Shown: piece by piece, positions 447 through 11,205 of the stretch
How positions within the stretch are numbered: the stretch's first letter is position 1
Layout: each line of letters starts with the position of its first letter
Assembly: GCA_000004985.1 (NCBI GenBank)
Contig: GG738858.1
Source: Naegleria gruberi
Lineage: Eukaryota
Direction: 5' to 3' (one strand)
DNA: 64,000 nucleotides
Made by a program: the position numbers and the translations under genes
Notes under the pieces: model-generated
The model's database searches: none
The model's input: the letters and a program-made list of their open reading frames with translations, nothing else
Told to the model about the DNA's origin: nothing

Positions 447-686
447 ACAAATACGTTACGTTAAGTCACTACACACGATGTCTATTGACTTTGTATTGGT
501 AGTGAGCTTTTTATTCGGAGAGGTTACTCCTTTTGAGAAGAAAGAGCTTATTGGAGTGATTGTGGCAGGGAAATAACTTGAAGGATTGTAGTATTTTAAC
601 AAGGGTGAAAATTATTTGATATTCCAATATAGTTCTGTAAGGACTATGGAGATAACGGTTTATAAAAATTTTTAGAATCGCAATAC

Positions 687-2598: not shown

Positions 2599-3472
2599 TT
2601 CGGTTTTGGTACAATCTATTACTATATAATATTATTGTTTTTGGTCTTGAAAATATTCATTCAAAAACTATCTACTCTAAAATCAGAGAAGTGTGATGAT
2701 GAAATGTACACGAGAGAAGAAAGATGAAAATCCCAAGAGAGAATATTCTTCAAATTTTTTCTTCTTTCCGGAATGTTGAAAGGTGCGCGAAATGTTTTGC
2801 CCAAAAGCTTGCAAGAAAAAGTCCATGATTGAATTCGAGTGCAAGCAGCTCAACACACCGTAATTGCTGTTTATTGTCATCTTTGCAAAATGATAGAGTT
2901 TATGTAACATTGTAGGATTGTTAAAGAAGGTGATGGTCATAGATGTTGGTGTTGGGTAAATGTGTTGAAAAATCCAACCATTGTGAATTTCACAATTCCT
3001 AATGTCAAAAAGTTAACAACGGAAAGTGGTGACCGTTTGCAACCTTAATCATCACTCATGTGTCATACTTGAAGAGTTTTAAATTACTGCTCACAAGGAA
3101 ATTGTAAAGCTAACTTGAAATTAAGGGAAAAAAACTGTAGTTCTTATCTTTGCTCTAATTTCATCACCAAATATTGAATAAACGAATATGGATCTGACTC
3201 CTTTCGTAACATCCCATTTGCATAAAAAAAACCATTAAACCAATAAATCTGCTGATTGATCTATTCGGTCGGAAACTGAATTCATTGCTAATATATCTTC
3301 ATAGAAACCATCAGTTATTACGCCTCATTCAACAGTTGATTATGTAGGTTGAGTATGGTGGGTAAAATAATATGAGTTCATATCGAGGCAAATTGAAGTG
3401 TCTTTTTGCTTGGATTCGGAGAATCACAGAACAAAACCATCACCGAATTGAAACAAAGCTTACAAAAAAAAA

Positions 3473-5389
3473 ATGAGAGCATCATCACACTTGCTTAAAC
3501 AACACTGCTCCTCCAAACGAGCATCAGGTAAAAAACTGTTGAGTAATACTGTTGCTTCTGTACTTGGTACAACAGCAAATGGCAGAGCCTTGTCAAGTAC
3601 CATTGTATCATCATCAATCAAGAATAATTTATTTGCCAACAAGAATAATTTATATAACAAACCAAATCATTCCAAGAGAAGCTTTTCGACAAGTTTATTG
3701 TCCAGAAATGAAGAATCTATGGAAGAAGAACCAATCGAAAGAGAAGTTATGGAATATGACGTTGTAATTGTTGGTGCAGGTCCATCTGGTTTATCTTGTG
3801 CAATTAAATTAAAACAATTGGCACAAGAATCGGGAAGTGATATTAGTGTATGTGTTTTGGAAAAGGGACAAGAAGTTGGATCTCATCTCTTATCAGGTGC
3901 ATGTATGGAAACACATTCACTTGAAGAATTATTCCCAAATTTCAGAGAACTTGATGTACCTTTCTATACACCTGCCACAAAGGATAGAATGTTGTTTTTG
4001 ACAGAGAAGAGAGCATTACCTTTACCAACAATTTCCGAAATGAATAATCATGGTAATTACATTGTTAGTTTGGGTCAAATTGCCAAATGGTTATCTGAAC
4101 AAGCAGAAGCTTTAGGAGTTGATATTTTACCAGGTTTTTCTGCTGATCAAGTCGTTTATGCTGATGAAAATAATGATAGAGTCATTGGTGTCATCACAAA
4201 GGATGTTGGTATCGGAAAGGATGGAAAGAGAAAGGACAATTTTGAACCAGGTATTATGCTTCAAGCAAGACAAACAATTTTCTCTGAAGGATGTAGAGGA
4301 TCACTCACTAAAACTCTTTATGCCAATCAGAAATTTAAATTGAGAGAAAATTGCACACCACAAACTTTTGCTCTCGGAGTTAAAGAATTATGGGAATTTC
4401 CAGAAGATCACCCAACATTTGACAAGGGACTTATTACACACAGTGTTGGTTATCCATTAGATGCTCACACTTATGGTGGTTCATTCATGTATCATTTCAA
4501 TGCTGATGGTGCCAATAGAGTTGCTCTTGGTTTAGTTACTGCATTAGATTATGAAAATCCAACTCTCAGTCCATATAATGAATTCCAAAAACTTAAACAT
4601 CATCCAGAATTTAAGAAAGTTCTCGAAGGTGGTAAATGCATTTCATATGGAGCTAGAACTCTCGTTGAAGGTGGTATTCAAGCTCTTCCAAAACTTTCAT
4701 TCCCAGGTGGTGTTTTAATTGGTGATACTGCTGGTTTCTTGAACGTTCCAAAGATCAAGGGTATTCACACAGCCATGAAATCTGGTATTTTGGGAGCTGA
4801 AAGTGTTTTTGAAGCTCTTACAAAGGATCAAGTTGAAGCAAGTACATTCCAAGAAAGATTCAAGAGTTCTTGGTTATACAACGAACTCTACAAGGAAAGA
4901 AATATTAGATCCTATTTCAAATATGGTCTCTATCCTGGTCTTTTATTGGCTGGTGTTGATTCAATTGTTTTTCGTGGAAAGACACCATGGACTGTCAAGA
5001 TGGAAACTTTAGATAATGAACATACCAAACCAATTTCTGAAGTGAAAAAGATTGAATATCCAAAACCAGATGGTGTTATCAGTTTCGATTTGTTGACTAA
5101 TCTCCAACGTTCTGGAACCAACCATAATCACGATCAACCAGCTCACTTAAAGTTGAAGGATGATTCCATACCTGTAAATGTTAACCTCAAAGTTTATGGT
5201 GGTCCTGAACAATACTTCTGTCCTGCCCGTGTGTATGAATTTATTCCAGATGAACAAGGAAATCAAAAGCTCAAGATTAATGCCCAAAATTGTCTCCACT
5301 GTAAGGCATGTGACATTAAGGATCCAAAGCAAAATATTAACTGGACTGTCCCTGAAGGTACTGGAGGTCCATCCTATCTTATTATGTAA
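3473..5389 (+). CDS. ETFDH: Electron-transfer flavoprotein:ubiquinone oxidoreductase, mitochondrial (ETF-QO)
   Basis: Intronless 638 aa protein with an N-terminal R/S-rich presequence, an FAD motif VVIVGAGPSGLSCAIKL and a C-terminal 4Fe-4S ferredoxin motif CPARVYEF...NCLHCKACDIKDP. Confidence 0.9.
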   Translation: MRASSHLLKQHCSSKRASGKKLLSNTVASVLGTTANGRALSSTIVSSSIKNNLFANKNNLYNKPNHSKRSFSTSLLSRNEESMEEEPIEREVMEYDVVIVGAGPSGLSCAIKLKQLAQESGSDISVCVLEKGQEVGSHLLSGACMETHSLEELFPNFRELDVPFYTPATKDRMLFLTEKRALPLPTISEMNNHGNYIVSLGQIAKWLSEQAEALGVDILPGFSADQVVYADENNDRVIGVITKDVGIGKDGKRKDNFEPGIMLQARQTIFSEGCRGSLTKTLYANQKFKLRENCTPQTFALGVKELWEFPEDHPTFDKGLITHSVGYPLDAHTYGGSFMYHFNADGANRVALGLVTALDYENPTLSPYNEFQKLKHHPEFKKVLEGGKCISYGARTLVEGGIQALPKLSFPGGVLIGDTAGFLNVPKIKGIHTAMKSGILGAESVFEALTKDQVEASTFQERFKSSWLYNELYKERNIRSYFKYGLYPGLLLAGVDSIVFRGKTPWTVKMETLDNEHTKPISEVKKIEYPKPDGVISFDLLTNLQRSGTNHNHDQPAHLKLKDDSIPVNVNLKVYGGPEQYFCPARVYEFIPDEQGNQKLKINAQNCLHCKACDIKDPKQNINWTVPEGTGGPSYLIM

Positions 5390-5408: not shown

Positions 5409-6032
5409 TTATTTATGGTGTTTTTGTAAAGAAGATGATTTTAATTTTGCAAATGCTTTCAAAACATTTCGTTCCTTTTGATTATTGTTGATACAAGGAG
5501 AGGATGTGTTCAATTGTTCAAGTTGCTTAGAATGAAACACCAATTGTATCTTCTCCATCATTTGAATGCAAGCAGATGACTCGACAATTTGCCCTAATTT
5601 ACAATGACAATTCATCTTTAATTGATAAAGTGAATTCAACTCGATCAAATCAACTTGTGGGATGTTATTAATTGGCTCAGAGTTGCTACAAAATAATTGA
5701 ATTAATTTTTGATATCCTATTAATGCATTCGAATACTCCTCTAATTCTAAACATTTATCTGAATAGTTTCTTACAATTAAAATCAATTCATTCCTATTGT
5801 GTTTATGTTCCTCCTTCTCCATCACATCAATTAATATTCTCATTATCAACAAGGCTTTATGAATCATTCCAACACTATTGTAAAGCCTAACCTGATATTT
5901 GAGCGCTTCCTTCTTATCATAAACATGATTCGATTTTTGAGCAATCCTTTCAATACTATTCTCATCTAAGGCTAATTCCTCAATACTTAAATACTGTCCA
6001 TCGAATAAGCTTTCCATTAATTGTTGTTCCAT
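5409..6032 (-). CDS. Hypothetical protein, 207 aa
   Basis: Clean intronless ORF abutting the ETF-QO stop (20 bp gap). Helical and Leu-rich with no motif I can name; PCI/TPR-like is possible. Confidence 0.4.
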   Translation of the reverse strand: MEQQLMESLFDGQYLSIEELALDENSIERIAQKSNHVYDKKEALKYQVRLYNSVGMIHKALLIMRILIDVMEKEEHKHNRNELILIVRNYSDKCLELEEYSNALIGYQKLIQLFCSNSEPINNIPQVDLIELNSLYQLKMNCHCKLGQIVESSACIQMMEKIQLVFHSKQLEQLNTSSPCINNNQKERNVLKAFAKLKSSSLQKHHK

Positions 6033-6132
6033 TATTTTTTGTTGTATTCAAGGGTAAGCTCTCCATCAAAATATAAGCTTGCGTAATTGTGATCTATTTT
6101 TGTCTTTTAATTGAAAAACAATAGATAAAAAA

Positions 6133-6830
6133 ATGAGTATTCTCGAATATAATGGAGCCGGTATTGTCGCCATGACTGGCAAGAATTGTGTGGCCATCGC
6201 TGCCGATACAAGATATGGTATTCGTCAACAAACTGTAGGAACTGATATGCAAAAGATTTTCAAGATTCACGATAAATTGTTTATTGGATTGAACGGATTG
6301 GCTACTGATGTTCAAACTGTTAATGAAAAACTGAAATTTAGAATGAACATGTACAATCTTAAGGAAGAAAGAGACATCAAACCAAGTAGTTTTGCCAATC
6401 TCATGTCTAATATTCTCTATGAAAAGAGGTATGTAATTTTCCCGATCAAAATATTCTTACAATCTCATCGTCATCATATTGATAACAATAATACTATTAA
6501 TACAATAGATTTGGACCTTGGTTTATTGAACCAGTTATTGCAGGACTTGAAGGACCAGAAAATAAGCCATTTATTTGCGCTCAAGATTTGATCGGAGCTC
6601 CTTGTTTTACTGATAACTTTGTTGTTTCTGGTACTTGTAGTGAAGCTTTATACGGAATGTGTGAATCTTTGTATAAACCAGATATGGAACCAGAAGATCT
6701 CTTTGAAGTTATTTCACAATGTCTTTTGGCTGCTGTTGATAGAGATTGTATTTCTGGTTGGGGTGCTGTTGTTCATGTAATCACTCCAGATAGTATCACA
6801 ACCAAGAGACTGAAGGTCAGACAAGATTAA
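6133..6830 (+). CDS. PSMB3: Proteasome subunit beta type-3
   Basis: Two exons, 6133..6428 and 6509..6830, with an 80-nt intron GTATGT...ACAATAG. The join restores the conserved ...[37 protein letters not shown]... stretch. Exon 1 begins [29 protein letters not shown], typical of an inactive beta3 N-terminus. Confidence 0.85.
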
Positions 6831-6987
6831 TTGCCTTTCATTCATTGTACACTTAACATGTCATTGTAAATTTAATACCTCATAAAACTATTTAACTTTC
6901 TAATAATGTTGTAACTTGATAGTAGTTCCATGTGTTCGTGGTTATTGCATTATCCAGCATAAGACAGTCTAATCCAATTTTTAAAAA

Positions 6988-9037
6988 ATGCTCAAACCAA
7001 CATCCCTATCGTTGGTATTAATGGTTATTTTGGCCATCCTTTCGGTTTTTGTTGGAGCAGACGAAGTTACACATAAAGTATGTTCTCCTGATTATAGTAA
7101 ATTTATACTGAATAACAAAAATAATAATTTAAAACTTTGTAATGATTAACTGTCGTTAGTATGAAGTTGGAGATAATGTTGTTTTGTGGGCAAATCACGT
7201 AGGACCACATTACAATCCTTTGGAAACATATCCTTATTATGAATCACATGTTCCTGTCTGTAAACCAAATGATCCTACACATGGAGATTTTAAATTGGAA
7301 TATAAATCACTTTCTCTCGGAGAAGCTTTACAAGGACAAGATCTTGTTAAAGTTTACGGAATTGAAACAATTTTCAGAAGTATGTTTTAATTAATATTGT
7401 ATTGTGTTCGAACAAGTGTTTAGAGAATACACCAATCACTCGTTTATGTAAATTGCCAATCACTAAGAAGGAAATTGATCAATATATTTATGCAATTGAT
7501 AATCAATATTGGTATCAATATTACTTGGATGGTATGTAATTTTTAATCATCATAATATTAAATAATAATAATTCAAGATCTTCCAATGTGGGCCATGATT
7601 GGAGGTTACGCCTTGTCAAAGAAGGGAGATACTGTAGAAAAAGTACCTTTTGTTTATACACATCAAATCTTTAATTTGGAATGGAATGAGGATCGTATTG
7701 TTAGTGTAAATTTAACTTCTAGTAGAAGAAAGCCTCTTTTGGATAACACACAAGAAATTACTTTCACTTACGAAGTTAATTGGAATAATAATCCTAATAT
7801 TAATTTTGAGAAACGTTTTGATCTCTACCTTGAACTCAACTTTTTCCAACACAAGATTCACTGGTTCTCAATCATTAATAGTTTCATGATGGTTTTATTC
7901 TTGAGTGCTGTAGTTTTTATGATTTTAATCAGAACTCTCTACAAAGATCTAGCTGCTCTTGAAAAACATGCCAAATCTAAAACTGGTGGAGATATGGAAA
8001 TTGGAACAGAAAATGATAGTGAGTTTGATATTATTGGAAGTGGAGACTCTTCTGATAGTGGTCCTTGGAAAATGTTACATGGTGATGTATTCCGTAAGCC
8101 AGCAAACCTTACATTATTCTGTGCAATTCTTGGTACTGGTCTTCAATTATTATTCTTGGCATTTTATTTGATTCTTCTCTCTATTATCAATACTTGGTAT
8201 GATACTCGTGGAGCTTTGTTGAGAGCTTTCATTTTCACATACTGTATTACAAGCTTTGTTGGTGGTTATTTCAGTGGACATTTCTACCTCAAATGGAAGG
8301 GAACTGGAGATAGATGGATTAGAACAGCTCTCTGGACAGCTTGTATTTTCCCATTCACTGTATTTATTACATCCATATTATTGAATTTCTTGGCTATTTC
8401 ATATAATGCTTTGATTGCCATGCCATTCACTACCATGCTTACTGTTTTTGTTATGTGGTTGTTCATTACTCTTCCACTAACATTTATTGGTACAATCTTT
8501 GGCAGAAACTTCCCTTCAAAGAATGTTGGTAAATCAAGTCAATTCCCATGCCAAGTCAATCAATTCCCAAGACCAATTCCAACTAAGCCATGGTATTTCA
8601 GAACATTTAGCATGTTTATTTTTGCTGGTATTTTACCATTCGGAAGTATCTTTATTGAACTCTATTTCGTATTTACTTCATTCTGGAATTACAAGTTTTA
8701 CTATGTTTATGGATTCCTTTTATTGGTATTTGCAATTCTAGTTGTAGTTATTGGTTGTGTTTCAGTTGTTACAACATTCTTCCTTTTGAATAGTGAAGAT
8801 TGGAGATGGGTGTGGCACTCAATGATTGTTGGTTTCAGTACTTCATTCTACATTTTCCTCTACTCAATTTACTTCTTTAATACCAAGACAAGAATGAGAG
8901 GCTTCTTCCAGATAGTTTTCTACTATGGTATTACGTTCATGTTTTGTGTGGGTATGGCATTCCTGTGTGGTGCTATTGCCTTCTCTGCCACCTATGTCTT
9001 TGTTAAACGAATTTACAAGGACATTAAAGTTGATTAA
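6988..9037 (+). CDS. Transmembrane 9 superfamily (nonaspanin) protein, paralog A (TM9SF2/4-like, Phg1-like)
   Basis: Four exons at ~6988..7077, 7160..7379, 7424..7531 and 7578..9037, with introns of 82, 44 and 46 nt (all GTATGT donors). There is a signal peptide MLKPTSLSLVLMVILAILSVFVGA. The splices join the conserved ...LCKLPITKKEIDQYIYAIDNQYWYQYYLDDLPMWAMIGGY... stretch, and a C-terminal nine-TM region follows. Confidence 0.85.
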
Positions 9038-9234
9038 TCAATTTTTTCACACACAAAAGTACTCTAGAGTGACTAAATTAAATATTTAAATAGATTGAAA
9101 CTCTTCAACCCTCACAGCTCTCAGTTATTAAATAATACTTAAACAATAAATTACAAAATAAATTAAAACTTTTTATTGAACAAAAATTGTGTGTGGTGAG
9201 AAAGATATGTTTGGAGGTGTTCGGTTTAGAAAAC

Positions 9235-9348
9235 TTAAACCTTGTTGTTTCTCTTTCTTCTCAAGAAGCCTAAGCCAACAAAAATGGCGAAAATAACCAA
9301 CAACACAAAAACAACAATAGCAATAATATCACCGGCTGCGATACCCAT
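9235..9348 (-). CDS. Candidate small single-pass membrane protein, 37 aa; sub-threshold ORF not in the six-frame track
   Basis: Minus ATG at 9348 and TAA at 9235 give MGIAAGDIIAIVVFVLLVIFAIFVGLGFLRRKRNNKV, one TM helix with a basic tail. A canonical 96-nt intron (GTATGTGTTT...ATCAAATAG, minus strand ~9349..9444) ends exactly at the ATG, as expected for a spliced 5'UTR. Confidence 0.35.
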   Translation of the reverse strand: MGIAAGDIIAIVVFVLLVIFAIFVGLGFLRRKRNNKV

Positions 9349-9876
9349 CTATTTGATGAAAACAATCAATAATGATCAATCCAATAACAACCGATCACCA
9401 TCAAATCATATTAAATTCAAATTGTTTTGCCTCTAAACACATACCTTTTCAAATATTTGATATTTTTTTAAATTAATATTTGTTACTTTGTGATTCTGAG
9501 CAGGCAAAAATCTTCTTGCTGGCAAACTCCGGAGAATGTTTTATTGGAAGAAGGCTAGAGAGTTTCATAAACGAAGGAATTGAAAAGGGTTCTTTCTTGC
9601 ATTGATTCTCCAATTAGATTCCATAATATTTCATCAAGGCTAGTAAATACTAAGTAATTAGAGATTATTGAACGTTGATTTAATATCAAGATTTAATACG
9701 TGGAAATGTAAATTGGTGCCAATATGATAATTTTTAAACCATGCACATACACATTTAAAAACCATGATTAAACAACTGTTAATTAAGTACTGTAGTAGCA
9801 CACTTCAACATCATGTTACTTCATACTAAATTGATTATTAAATTATTTAATAATTATTTGATGAAATTCAAAAAAA

Positions 9877-11205
9877 ATGTTTGCAACTTCAAGTGGTCGT
9901 TTTGGTTTAAATTTTGATGATGATAGTGATGATGAATTAATGCTTGTAGATGATGAAAAGGCTGTGGAAAAAATTCAAGACAATGATGATGAATTAATGC
10001 AAGAATCGGAGGAGGATTATAAAAAGTTTCTTAAGGAGAGTGATACATCACTGACAAGCAATTATTCAAATTTACCAAAATCATTTAAACAATCGATAAT
10101 GCACGATTATATTGGACATACTATTCAAAATATTGGTGTATTGTTTTATAATAATTTGGTTCCACAAGTGAGTACATCATTCTCCAAGACATCAAGTGCA
10201 AGCTTTTCGGAATTAATATTGGCTATTTCCAATAGAAACACTGTTCGATTCTATACCTTGTTGAATGATAGCAAACAAATGAAAATTATTGAATTTTCTT
10301 CAGAAGATAATTCCATCACTTTGGAGGAAAATATCAAATTTATCAAGGTTATTGATGATCTTTTAATTGTTTGTGACGAAAGAGGTACAATTTATGTTTA
10401 TAGACACAATGTTAGTCAGATTCCACAACCAGATCAAACAAAATTATTGCCAACACATGAACTTAAAATTACTTGCTCATATAGACCTTTCGAAATTTGT
10501 CCAAATGATTCCAATAACTTTTTATCTTTTGATGTCGAAGCACTTTTTGAGGGAGATATTTTGAAAATCACTGTTGCTTTAGGTACTAGTAATGGAGCTA
10601 TTTATTATTCAACATTCTCAAACACAACCAGAAAGCCTTCTCAATTTGAAGTTCTCAGACAAATCAAATATCAACACAAATCTATGCTTCCAATTCTTGG
10701 TCTTACATTCCCAATCAGAAAGTTGGTTGCTGTTGATATTCCAATTATGTTATATTATAGAACTATGAATTGTGTATTCTCTGTTGATGTAAACGATAAC
10801 AGCATTACACAAGCTAAGTACGAGCCAACTTTGGTAATGAAAACAAAGGACAGAATAACATGTCTATTTGTTCATCCTCTCCAACCAAATAATATTATTG
10901 TTGGTTTGGCAAAAGGTACACTTATTGGAAGAGACCAAATCAGTGTGTGGGATAGATCAGTTTCAAACAATGCAATTAAGGCTATCACATTTGGAAATCA
11001 ATCTAAGAGTATTCTTGTTGGAGATGAACAAGGATTTATTTACAGTGTCGACATGACAAATATTAACCAAAAATCAAGTCAATCATCTGAAAAGAGCATA
11101 GAGAATCTTGATGGAAATGACGTTCTACATATTGAATATCTTTCATCTGAAGATAAGATTTTAGCTGTTAATTCAAATGGAAGAATTAACTTGGTTTTGA
11201 ATTAA
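9877..11205 (+). CDS. Hypothetical protein, 442 aa, with an acidic N-terminus and a possible beta-propeller-like C-terminal part
   Basis: Clean ORF beginning with an ATG at 9877. Recurrent motifs IYVYRH, AIYYSTF and FIYSVD suggest beta-strand repeats; no firm family. Its stop (11203-11205) overlaps the stop of the convergent MFS gene within a TTAA. Confidence 0.45.
   Translation: MFATSSGRFGLNFDDDSDDELMLVDDEKAVEKIQDNDDELMQESEEDYKKFLKESDTSLTSNYSNLPKSFKQSIMHDYIGHTIQNIGVLFYNNLVPQVSTSFSKTSSASFSELILAISNRNTVRFYTLLNDSKQMKIIEFSSEDNSITLEENIKFIKVIDDLLIVCDERGTIYVYRHNVSQIPQPDQTKLLPTHELKITCSYRPFEICPNDSNNFLSFDVEALFEGDILKITVALGTSNGAIYYSTFSNTTRKPSQFEVLRQIKYQHKSMLPILGLTFPIRKLVAVDIPIMLYYRTMNCVFSVDVNDNSITQAKYEPTLVMKTKDRITCLFVHPLQPNNIIVGLAKGTLIGRDQISVWDRSVSNNAIKAITFGNQSKSILVGDEQGFIYSVDMTNINQKSSQSSEKSIENLDGNDVLHIEYLSSEDKILAVNSNGRINLVLN

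What the first reader, a model, noticed from the sequence alone, without database searches (positions are those of the whole stretch)
9235..9444. Unannotated 37-codon single-TM ORF directly behind a canonical 5'UTR intron
The 840-bp apparently empty interval between the TM9SF gene and the next gene contains, on the minus strand, ATG...TAA encoding MGIAAGDIIAIVVFVLLVIFAIFVGLGFLRRKRNNKV. That is one hydrophobic helix plus an RRKRNNK tail, the architecture of micro-membrane-proteins such as OST4, sarcolipin-like regulators or proteolipids. A 96-nt GTATGT...AAATAG intron ends exactly at the ATG, which argues that this is a processed transcript rather than a chance ORF. It is below the 60-aa cutoff of the supplied track.
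Basis: seen in the sequence. Interest (0 to 1): 0.55.

Follow-up and report, generated by a model that had tools for sequence, protein, structure and literature searches.

The report
Conserved unannotated Naegleria membrane microprotein gene
The 37-codon ORF is very probably a real, overlooked gene for a tiny single-helix membrane protein that has been kept under selection across heterolobosean amoebae (Naegleria, including the pathogen N. fowleri, Willaertia and Acrasis), but its function is unknown.

Summary
There is an ATG..TAA ORF at 9235-9348 (-), and a 96-nt GTATGT...AG interval at 9349-9444 that ends at the ATG.

The window is from a Naegleria species. The ORF alone means little, because 62% of shuffles of this spacer give an ORF of at least 37 aa. 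Comparison with relatives settles it.

- **Orthologues:** an orthologous ORF of 32-45 aa is present in another Naegleria sp., N. lovaniensis, N. fowleri, Willaertia magna and Acrasis kona. It is called as a gene in none of them.
- **Position:** in Naegleria and Willaertia it lies tail-to-tail 124-197 nt behind the TM9SF gene.
- **Coding signal:** only this frame stays open in all species. dN/dS is 0.11-0.40, and substitutions fall 112:70:233 on codon positions 1:2:3. The flanks cannot be aligned.
- **Intron:** AAG|GTAnGT...AG is kept at the same place (0-2 nt before the ATG) in all five Naegleria/Willaertia loci, although the intron sequence is not conserved.
- **Protein:** one very hydrophobic helix, an invariant AGD cap and an RR[KR]R tail. 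The likely topology is N-out/C-in.
- **Known families:** none matches (Pfam, NCBIfam, PDB, two billion-scale protein sets).

Splicing, translation and function remain untested. An accessory subunit of a larger membrane protein is my best guess.

The parts
9235..9348 (-). Coding sequence of the microprotein: 37 codons plus TAA at 9237-9235. The product is MGIAAGDIIAIVVFVLLVIFAIFVGLGFLRRKRNNKV.
   Evidence: Searches give the ORF. Searches give orthologues in 5 other taxa. One search gives dN/dS of 0.11-0.40. One search shows it is the only frame open in all species, with substitutions 112:70:233 by codon position and a KD19 of 3.5. (AF2) predicts a single helix, residues 5-34, pLDDT 83.
9349..9444 (-). 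Predicted 5'UTR spliceosomal intron, 96 nt: GTATGT donor at 9444-9439, AG acceptor at 9350-9349, ending at the base before the ATG.
   Evidence: One search gives the sequence. One search shows the verified TM9SF introns of the same window all begin with GTATGT. Searches show an equivalent AAG|GTAnGT...AG interval of 79-198 nt in L004, L005, L001, L002 and L003, ending 0 nt (2 nt in L005) before the ATG. One search shows a 2-nt indel and one substitution inside it between two strains, as expected of non-coding sequence. Spliced reads were not available.
9445..9470 (-). 3' part of the non-coding first exon. The 5' end (transcription start) is unknown, so 9470 is only a minimum extent. It contains the conserved A-run motif AAAAAATAT (9468-9460) and ends in AAG.
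   Evidence: Searches show AAAAAATA[CT] lying 8-25 nt upstream of the donor in all five Naegleria/Willaertia loci. One search finds only 4 copies of the motif in the 64-kb window (10.6 expected). One search finds no in-frame ATG between the last upstream stop and the start codon in 4 of 5 spliced models.
9172..9177 (-). Candidate poly(A) signal AATAAA, 57 nt downstream of the stop codon.
   Evidence: AATAAA or ATTAAA is found 57-131 nt after the stop in every Naegleria/Willaertia orthologous locus. This is a consensus match only, with no 3'-end data.

Best explanation
This is a genuine two-exon protein-coding gene that annotation pipelines missed because of its size.

**Gene structure.** A short non-coding first exon carries a conserved AAAAAATAY element and ends in AAG. 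It is spliced across a 96-nt GTATGT...AG intron directly onto the start codon, which gives an AAG|ATGG initiation context.

**Product.** The 37-aa protein is a single very hydrophobic transmembrane helix (about residues 8-29). It is capped by an invariant A-G-D and followed by an invariant G-[FY]-x-R-R-[KR]-R juxtamembrane stretch.

**Topology (inferred).** By the positive-inside rule (N flank -1, C tail +4 to +5), the 7-residue N-terminus faces the lumen or outside and the polybasic tail faces the cytosol. The tail probably sits on the anionic leaflet. The protein is too short for co-translational targeting, so it must insert post-translationally.

**Function (inferred, about 35% likely).** It probably acts as a small integral accessory or regulatory subunit packed against a larger membrane protein or complex, or as a homo-oligomer. 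This would resemble Pmp1/2, FXYD proteins or OST4.

**Shown here:** the ORF, its conservation and purifying selection from Naegleria to Acrasis, and conserved splice signals.

**Inferred only:** splicing, translation, topology and function.
For: **Identity of the window.** It is Naegleria. The TM9SF ORF is 83% identical to N. lovaniensis, 78% to N. fowleri and 72% to Willaertia magna.

**Orthologous ORFs:**
- L004, same species: identical CDS.
- L005, other Naegleria sp.: 43 aa, 76% identity, E 5e-16.
- L001 N. lovaniensis and L002 N. fowleri: 36 aa, identical to each other.
- L003 W. magna: 45 aa, 78% identity, E 3e-15.
- L028 Acrasis kona: 32 aa, E 7e-8.

**Position.** In the five Naegleria/Willaertia loci (L001-L005) the ORF lies on the strand opposite to TM9SF and close behind it. 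The stop-to-stop distance is 197 nt in the window and 124-195 nt in L005, L001, L002 and L003.

**Coding signature.**
- dN/dS is 0.11-0.40 in the nine estimable pairs. The N. lovaniensis versus N. fowleri pair has 4 synonymous and 0 non-synonymous differences.
- Substitutions by codon position are 112:70:233, and only the sense frame is free of stops in all six species.
- In a 500-bp multiple alignment only the CDS block is conserved.

**Intron.**
- The AAG|GT[A][TCG]GT donor and the AG acceptor are kept at 0-2 nt from the ATG in 5 of 5 Naegleria/Willaertia loci, although the interior is not conserved and the length varies from 79 to 198 nt.
- GTATGT is the donor of all three verified introns of the neighbouring gene.
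- The upstream exon does not keep a reading frame. The acceptor is offset by 2 nt in L005, and the length difference between N. lovaniensis and N. fowleri is not a multiple of three.

**Protein.** KD19 is 3.0-3.5 in all species, the N flank carries -1 and the tail +4 to +5. AF2 predicts one helix, residues 5-34, pLDDT 83.
Against: - There is no transcript, ribosome-profiling or peptide evidence. The exact protein is not on record in 153 billion gene positions, and no RNA-derived contig could be reached.
- Splicing does not change the ORF, because a TAG lies in frame just before the ATG. The intron is therefore supported only by comparison between species.
- Acrasis shows no obvious intron.
- Conservation shows no helical-face periodicity (shuffle p = 0.46). 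There is thus no direct support for a single partner-binding face.
- Nothing identifies a partner or a compartment.
- No homologue was found outside Heterolobosea. Proteins this small are rarely predicted, so this absence is weak evidence.
Confidence: 0.8

Rival explanations
1. It is a chance ORF in an AT-rich, T-skewed spacer. Such sequence readily encodes F/L/I/V-rich peptides, and there is no gene here.
For: ORFs of at least 37 aa occur in 62% of shuffles of the spacer. Many ORFs of 25-60 aa are listed all around it. No protein database contains it.
Against: The same ORF, with start, stop, TM segment and RRxR tail, is present in five other taxa up to Acrasis. It has dN/dS of 0.11-0.40 and third-position-biased substitutions, while everything around it is unalignable. 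A TM-plus-basic-tail ORF arose in 0 of 3000 shuffles.
Confidence: 0.02
2. The conserved block is a non-coding element and the ORF is incidental. Candidates are part of the TM9SF 3'UTR, an antisense regulator of TM9SF, or a small RNA.
For: The block lies 124-197 nt behind the TM9SF stop, on the opposite strand, in every Naegleria/Willaertia locus. A sub-threshold C/D snoRNA-like Rfam hit lies nearby at 9427-9507 (+), 26.5 bits against a gathering score of 46.
Against: Conservation has codon periodicity (112:70:233). Synonymous sites are near saturation while the peptide is kept. Only one of six frames is open in all species. In Acrasis the ORF is 9.3 kb away from TM9SF and still intact. The Rfam hit is below threshold, lies outside the conserved block, and falls in sequence that is not conserved.
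Confidence: 0.03
3. The ORF is the last exon (TM segment plus cytoplasmic stub) of a larger type-I membrane protein whose upstream coding exons were not recognised. On this reading the ATG is an internal methionine.
For: An intron ends exactly at the ATG, which would be a phase-0 junction. In the window the frame upstream of the donor is open for 96 nt. TM plus RRKR looks like the TM and stop-transfer segment of receptors, for example the IGF1R TM region as the best PDB match at E 4.9.
Against: - The upstream exon frame contains no ATG before the preceding stop in 4 of 5 species.
- The acceptor is shifted by 2 nt in L005.
- The upstream exons differ in length by non-multiples of 3 and are not alignable.
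- Only about 430 bp separate the donor from the divergent neighbour's ATG, and nothing in that stretch is conserved apart from the short AAAAAATAY motif of the first exon.
- In Acrasis the ATG is 89 nt from the neighbouring gene and has no intron.
- The Met is invariant in all six species.
Confidence: 0.04
4. It is the heterolobosean orthologue of a universal micro-subunit that has diverged beyond recognition. The most plausible candidate is OST4 of the oligosaccharyltransferase, which has the same length class and the same N-lumen/C-cytosol topology.
For: The size is 32-45 aa. There is one TM helix, an acidic residue in the short N-flank and a polar or basic C-tail. From my own knowledge, human and yeast OST4 are 36-37 aa with this topology.
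Against: There is no match to Pfam Ost4 or to any other small-subunit family at E up to 10. A profile of the five orthologues finds no OST4 chain, and no other small subunit of any solved complex, at E up to 10. As I recall it, OST4 lacks a polybasic RRxR stretch directly after the helix.
Confidence: 0.07

Closest known systems
Yeast plasma-membrane proteolipids Pmp1/Pmp2 (Pfam PMP1_2), regulators of the H+-ATPase Pma1
   Same: The size is about 40 aa. The N-terminus is very short and exoplasmic and contains glycine. There is one TM helix and a strongly basic cytosolic tail directly after it. This comparison of architecture rests on my knowledge of Pmp1 and for this protein.
   Different: No sequence similarity was detected. 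No ATPase partner is known here. The AGD cap and the G-[FY]-x-RRxR motif are specific to the heterolobosean family.
OST4, the 36-37-aa subunit of oligosaccharyltransferase
   Same: Same length class, single TM helix, N-lumen/C-cytosol topology, acidic residue before the helix.
   Different: No match to the Ost4 model or to OST4 chains in solved OST structures. The polybasic tail is not an OST4 feature.
FXYD proteins (phospholemman, Na,K-ATPase gamma subunit)
   Same: Single-pass N-out/C-in accessory subunits, with small residues in the helix and an R-rich stretch right after it.
   Different: There is no F-x-Y-D motif and essentially no ectodomain (direct reading of the sequence). There is no Pfam hit.
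Sarcolipin, phospholamban and other 'regulin' micropeptides (SERCA regulators)
   Same: Single-helix membrane peptides encoded by small ORFs and long overlooked by annotation.
   Different: Those are tail-anchored, with a cytosolic N-terminus. Here the charge distribution predicts the opposite orientation. No sequence match was found.
Bacterial C-terminal sorting signals (LPXTG anchor, PEP-CTERM, Heimdall-CTERM)
   Same: A hydrophobic helix followed by an R/K cluster. These give the most frequent weak HMM hits (4 of 5 members, best E 0.01).
   Different: All hits are below the cut-offs and reflect composition only. Those signals are C-terminal parts of large secreted proteins, not stand-alone eukaryotic genes with an intron.

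Membership tests
Protein-coding small ORF (functional microprotein gene) | The ORF, with its start and stop, is preserved in related species. | tested here: met
   Six loci from five further taxa carry it. Only the sense frame is stop-free in all of them.
Protein-coding small ORF (functional microprotein gene) | Purifying selection at the protein level: dN/dS well below 1 and codon periodicity of substitutions. | tested here: met
   dN/dS is 0.11-0.40. N. lovaniensis versus N. fowleri shows 4 synonymous and 0 non-synonymous differences. Substitutions by codon position are 112:70:233.
Protein-coding small ORF (functional microprotein gene) | Evidence of transcription and translation (RNA-seq, Ribo-seq, peptide). 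| not testable with these tools
   The exact protein is not on record and no RNA-derived contigs were reachable.
Spliceosomal 5'UTR intron | GT...AG boundaries that match the organism's own consensus. | tested here: met
   AAG|GTATGT...ATAG. The three verified TM9SF introns of the window all start with GTATGT and end in AG.
Spliceosomal 5'UTR intron | Intron position conserved in relatives, with an interior that is not conserved and varies in length. | tested here: met
   Intervals of 79-198 nt end 0-2 nt before the ATG in 5 of 5 Naegleria/Willaertia loci, and the interior is unalignable. No intron is evident in Acrasis.
Spliceosomal 5'UTR intron | Spliced junction observed in RNA. | not testable with these tools
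   No transcript data were available.
OST4 (Pfam Ost4) | About 36 aa, single TM helix, N-lumen/C-cytosol. | tested here: met
   The proteins are 32-45 aa with one helix. The charge bias predicts N-out/C-in. The topology itself is inferred.
OST4 (Pfam Ost4) | Sequence match to the family model or to OST4 chains of solved OST complexes. | tested here: not met
   No Ost4 hit at E up to 10 in Pfam. The profile search of PDB chains returned only two unrelated hits.
OST4 (Pfam Ost4) | Physical association with STT3 and the OST complex. | not testable with these tools
   This needs co-purification or multimer modelling.
Pmp1/Pmp2 proteolipids (Pfam PMP1_2) | About 40 aa, short exoplasmic N-terminus, one TM helix, basic cytosolic tail. 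| tested here: met
   This is architecture only.
Pmp1/Pmp2 proteolipids (Pfam PMP1_2) | Sequence match to the family model. | tested here: not met
   No hit at E up to 10.
FXYD family | Extracellular F-x-Y-D motif before the TM helix. | tested here: not met
   The motif is absent from all five sequences. There is no Pfam hit.
Sarcolipin/phospholamban-type regulins | Tail-anchored orientation (cytosolic N-terminus, short luminal C-terminus) and a family sequence match. | tested here: not met
   A +4 to +5 C-tail against a -1 N-flank predicts the opposite orientation. There is no Pfam or PDB match. The orientation is predicted, not measured.

The most novel reading that the evidence does not exclude
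The microprotein is an ancient, Heterolobosea-wide and possibly essential partner or client of the adjacent TM9SF/Phg1 protein. TM9 proteins bind glycine-bearing transmembrane helices and escort them to the cell surface (PMC4510845).

This micro-gene has stayed tail-to-tail within 124-197 nt of TM9SF across the sampled Naegleria species and Willaertia, and within 10 kb in Acrasis. Its helix keeps G6 and G27 invariant, and G25 in all but Acrasis.

If true, it would be the first dedicated micro-subunit or adaptor of a TM9 cargo receptor.
Probability: 0.06. Interest if true: 0.7.

Novelty: new member of a known kind. Interest (0 to 1): 0.45.

Why it matters
- **Missing from gene sets.** It adds a conserved gene that is absent from every heterolobosean gene set examined, including that of the brain-eating amoeba N. 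fowleri. It shows concretely that annotation length cut-offs hide selected membrane microproteins in protists.
- **No detectable relatives.** The family has no detectable relative in Pfam, NCBIfam, PDB or two billion-scale protein collections. It is therefore a lineage-restricted membrane component that could matter for Naegleria membrane biology.
- **A test case for start-adjacent introns.** The conserved intron that abuts the start codon, together with the AAAAAATAY first-exon motif, offers a clean case for asking why very short ORFs keep 5'UTR introns. Export or translation enhancement is a plausible reason, but that is inference.
- **Limits.** Membrane microproteins are a well-known class and no function is established, so the significance is moderate.

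Tried and rejected
- **Exact-sequence look-ups.** Neither the 37-mer nor the neighbouring 442-aa ORF is on record.
- **The search for homologous proteins with the 37-mer.** A 3-sequence alignment gave 3 word-sharing candidates, none scoring.
- **phmmer of the 37-mer against 1.84 billion representatives.** 0 hits at E up to 0.001.
- **JGI metagenome scans.** The back-translated pattern search gave 600 pattern matches, none confirmed. A degenerate DNA pattern for G-x-G-[FY]-x-RR[KR]R gave 22 loci, all matching only the pattern itself, and most look like unrelated TM/RRKR segments.
- **Family and structure libraries.** Pfam, NCBIfam and PDB profile searches gave only sub-threshold compositional hits: Syndecan, DUF4730, LPXTG, PEP-CTERM and the IGF1R TM region.
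- **Rfam on 9000-9900.** Two sub-threshold snoRNA-like hits in sequence that is not conserved, dismissed.
- **Helical-face conservation.** No significant moment (p = 0.46). Conservation is concentrated in the N-terminal half of the helix and at the cytosolic junction, so a single binding face cannot be claimed.
- **N-myristoylation of Gly2.** Rejected, because N. lovaniensis, N. fowleri and Acrasis start with M-V.
- **C-terminal KKXX ER-retrieval motif.** Rejected, because the tail ends do not fit it and are not conserved.
- **The 64-aa antisense ORF 9242-9436 (+).** Rejected, because that frame carries stops in N. lovaniensis, N. fowleri and Acrasis.
- **Strain polymorphism (L004 versus window).** 0 of about 9 spacer variants fall in the CDS, but only about 1.2 were expected, so this is uninformative.
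- **Literature.** No paper links Naegleria with small ORFs or microproteins, or describes a Naegleria 5'UTR intron of this kind.
- **Species identity.** No protein named as N. gruberi appears among the hits, so the window cannot be assigned beyond the genus Naegleria.

Full report
**1. The observation**

On the minus strand the window reads ...GAAAAG|GTATGTGTTT...(96 nt)...CATCAAATAG|ATGGGTATC....
- The ORF is 9235..9348 (-), 37 aa, MGIAAGDIIAIVVFVLLVIFAIFVGLGFLRRKRNNKV.
- The proposed intron is 9349-9444, with GTATGT at 9444-9439 and AG at 9350-9349.
- The spacer between the TM9SF stop (9037) and the next gene's ATG (9877) is 839 bp.

An ORF of this length is not remarkable in itself. An ATG ORF of at least 37 aa occurs in 62% of 3000 shuffles of the spacer. 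A TM-grade hydrophobic ORF (19-residue Kyte-Doolittle mean of at least 3.0) occurs in only 0.07% of shuffles. One that also has at least 4 K/R in its last 8 residues occurs in none. It is the only such ORF among the 202 ORFs of at least 37 aa in the window.

**2. The organism**

The large TM9SF ORF (7586-9037) is 83% identical to N. lovaniensis, 78% to N. fowleri, 72% to Willaertia magna and 53% to Acrasis kona. It is 100% identical to a protein on an ENA metagenome contig. The window is therefore from a Naegleria species.

No hit carries the name N. gruberi, so I cannot name the species. A 4-kb ENA contig (L004) is 99% identical to the window.

I rebuilt the TM9SF gene from four exons. The 625-aa product aligns end to end with the N. 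lovaniensis protein (83.6% over 611 aa). This verifies three introns of 82, 44 and 46 nt, and all three begin with GTATGT. The putative 5'UTR intron uses exactly the local donor consensus.

**3. Comparative test**

I fetched the TM9SF loci of the relatives and ran tblastn with the 37-mer. Every locus contains an orthologous small ORF.

| Locus | Taxon | Position (strand) | Length | Product or identity |
|---|---|---|---|---|
| L004 | same species | 3484..3371 (-) | 37 aa | identical CDS |
| L005 | another Naegleria sp. | 3087..2956 (-) | 43 aa | MGLVAGDIIAIIVFVLLIVFAGIVGLGFLRRKRNNRMGGGSSE |
| L001 | N. lovaniensis | 8428..8318 (-) | 36 aa | MVGAGDVIAIIVLVLLILFGVLIGMGYIRRRRNNKQ |
| L002 | N. 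fowleri | 8442..8332 (-) | 36 aa | same protein as L001 |
| L003 | W. magna | 8293..8156 (-) | 45 aa | MGIAAGDIIAIIVAVFLVIFLVFIGLGFLRRKRMGKSLTASGGTE |
| L028 | Acrasis kona | 684..586 (-) | 32 aa | MVAGDIISIIFFVLLGILATLAVLGYVRRRRG (E 7e-8) |

In Naegleria and Willaertia the ORF sits tail-to-tail 124-197 nt behind TM9SF. In Acrasis it lies 9.3 kb from TM9SF, between two other genes. None of these loci has a gene call at that position.

**4. Is it coding?**

- **Selection:** Nei-Gojobori dN/dS is 0.11-0.40 in the nine pairs for which it could be estimated. Synonymous sites are near saturation between genera. N. lovaniensis and N. fowleri differ by 4 synonymous and 0 non-synonymous changes.
- **Codon periodicity:** summed over all pairs, substitutions fall 112:70:233 on codon positions 1, 2 and 3.
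- **Open frame:** the sense frame is the only one of six without stops in all six species. The 64-aa antisense ORF of the window is broken in N. lovaniensis, N. fowleri and Acrasis.
- **Flanks:** in a multiple alignment of 500 bp around the ORF, only the CDS block is conserved. The intron, the first exon and the 3' flank are essentially unalignable.

This rules out both a chance ORF and a non-coding conserved element.

**5. The intron**

All five Naegleria/Willaertia sequences have a donor in the context AAG|GTAnGT (GTATGT, GTATGT, GTACGT, GTAGGT, GTACGT) and an AG acceptor.
- The acceptor lies directly before the ATG in four. In L005 it lies 2 nt before it (TTAG|AA ATG).
- Interval lengths are 96, 98, 79, 165, 198 and 110 nt.
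- The two strains of the window's species differ by a 2-nt indel and one substitution inside the interval, and by nothing in the CDS.

The upstream exon is non-coding.
- No ATG lies between the last in-frame stop and the start codon in 4 of 5 spliced models.
- The acceptor offset differs between species.
- The first exons of N. lovaniensis and N. fowleri differ in length by a non-multiple of three.

Splicing would create an AAG|ATGG start context, with A at -3 and G at +4, in four of the five. The unspliced RNA would have T at -3 in three of them (read directly).

A motif AAAAAATA[CT] lies 8-25 nt upstream of the donor in all five loci. It occurs only four times in the whole window, against 10.6 expected. 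It is probably a core promoter or start-site element, which implies a very short first exon.

AATAAA or ATTAAA follows the stop at 57-131 nt in all five. Acrasis shows no obvious intron.

Splicing itself remains inferred. It does not alter the ORF, because an in-frame TAG precedes the ATG.

**6. The protein**

The alignment of the five distinct orthologues has these invariant positions: M1, A5, G6, D7, I9, I11, V15, L17, G27, R30, R31 and R33. Position 28 is always F or Y.
- The maximal 19-residue hydropathy is 3.0-3.5 in all species.
- The N flank carries -1 and the tail +4 to +5.
- AlphaFold2 predicts a single helix, residues 5-34, mean pLDDT 83.

The positive-inside rule gives an N-out/C-in orientation. 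With 32-45 residues the protein must insert post-translationally. Moving the 7-residue N-terminus across the membrane is far easier than moving an RRKR tail (inference).

Conservation is concentrated in the outer-leaflet half of the helix (positions 5-17) and at the cytosolic junction. It shows no single-face periodicity (p = 0.46), so a defined partner-binding face cannot be claimed.

Myristoylation is excluded as a conserved feature, because Gly2 is absent in three species. A KKXX ER-retrieval signal is also excluded.

**7. Comparison with known families**

- **Pfam:** nothing reaches a curated cut-off. The hits are Syndecan, DUF4730, LPXTG and similar, all compositional.
- **NCBIfam:** nothing reaches a cut-off.
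- **PDB:** a profile of the five orthologues against all chains gives two unrelated hits at E of 2 or more. No solved small subunit matches, including OST4, sarcolipin, FXYD, or the small subunits of the TOM complex and the respiratory-chain complexes.
- **Large protein collections:** neither finds a relative.
- **JGI metagenome scans:** neither finds a relative.

In architecture the closest analogues are yeast Pmp1/2, OST4 and FXYD proteins, all short N-out single-pass proteins with a polar or basic cytosolic stub. This is a likeness in how it may work, not membership of those families.

**8. Mechanism and probabilities**

| Claim | Probability |
|---|---|
| Real, selected protein-coding gene | about 0.9 |
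| 5'UTR intron spliced as proposed | about 0.8 |
| N-out/C-in single-pass membrane protein | about 0.7 |
| Accessory or regulatory subunit of a larger membrane protein, or homo-oligomeric proteolipid | about 0.35 |
| Divergent OST4 | about 0.07 |
| Functionally tied to the adjacent TM9SF | about 0.06 |

The TM9SF idea rests on two points. TM9 proteins bind glycine-bearing TM helices (PMC4510845). That work needed 3-5 glycines in the helix, whereas this helix has 2-4. Synteny is the only supporting evidence.

**9. Verdict**

It is a new family within a well-known class, the membrane microproteins encoded by small ORFs.
- It is conserved across Heterolobosea and unannotated everywhere examined.
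- It has an unusually tidy conserved start-adjacent 5'UTR intron.

Interest is moderate (0.45). It is valuable for annotation and for Naegleria membrane biology, but no function is established.

Noticed in passing
window 9460-9468 (-); L001 about 8612-8620, L002 about 8657-8665, L003 about 8423-8431, L005 about 3176-3184 (all minus strand): The motif AAAAAATA[CT] lies 8-25 nt upstream of the 5'UTR-intron donor in all five Naegleria/Willaertia loci. It occurs only 4 times in the 64-kb window, against 10.6 expected. It may be a core-promoter or transcription-start element.
   Followed up: partly
window 9427-9507 (+): A sub-threshold C/D-box snoRNA-like Rfam hit (SNORD111, 26.5 bits against a gathering score of 46, E 0.033) lies antisense to the first exon and donor. 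The region is not conserved in relatives, so it is probably chance.
   Followed up: partly
L001 8724-12643 (-); L002 8774-9343 (-): In N. lovaniensis and N. fowleri a large RCC1/EGF/protein-kinase gene lies between the micro-gene and the orthologue of the window's 442-aa ORF. In the window, L005 and Willaertia the two are direct divergent neighbours. This is a lineage-specific insertion or rearrangement that left the TM9SF/micro-gene pair intact.
   Followed up: no
window 9877-11205 (+): The 442-aa divergent neighbour has no Pfam domain. Its only detectable relatives are three Naegleria hypothetical proteins at 42-43% identity. It evolves much faster than the microprotein next to it.
   Followed up: no
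window 5865-9920 versus L004 1-4065: An ENA metagenome contig (ERR1078381, PRJEB11402) is 99.0% identical to the window over 4 kb, so the same Naegleria species is present in that environmental sample.
   Followed up: partly
window 6133-9037 (+); L001, L002, L003, L004, L005: The gene order proteasome beta subunit, then TM9SF, then the micro-gene is conserved from Naegleria to Willaertia. In Acrasis the micro-gene is still within 10 kb of TM9SF, but the other neighbours differ.
   Followed up: partly
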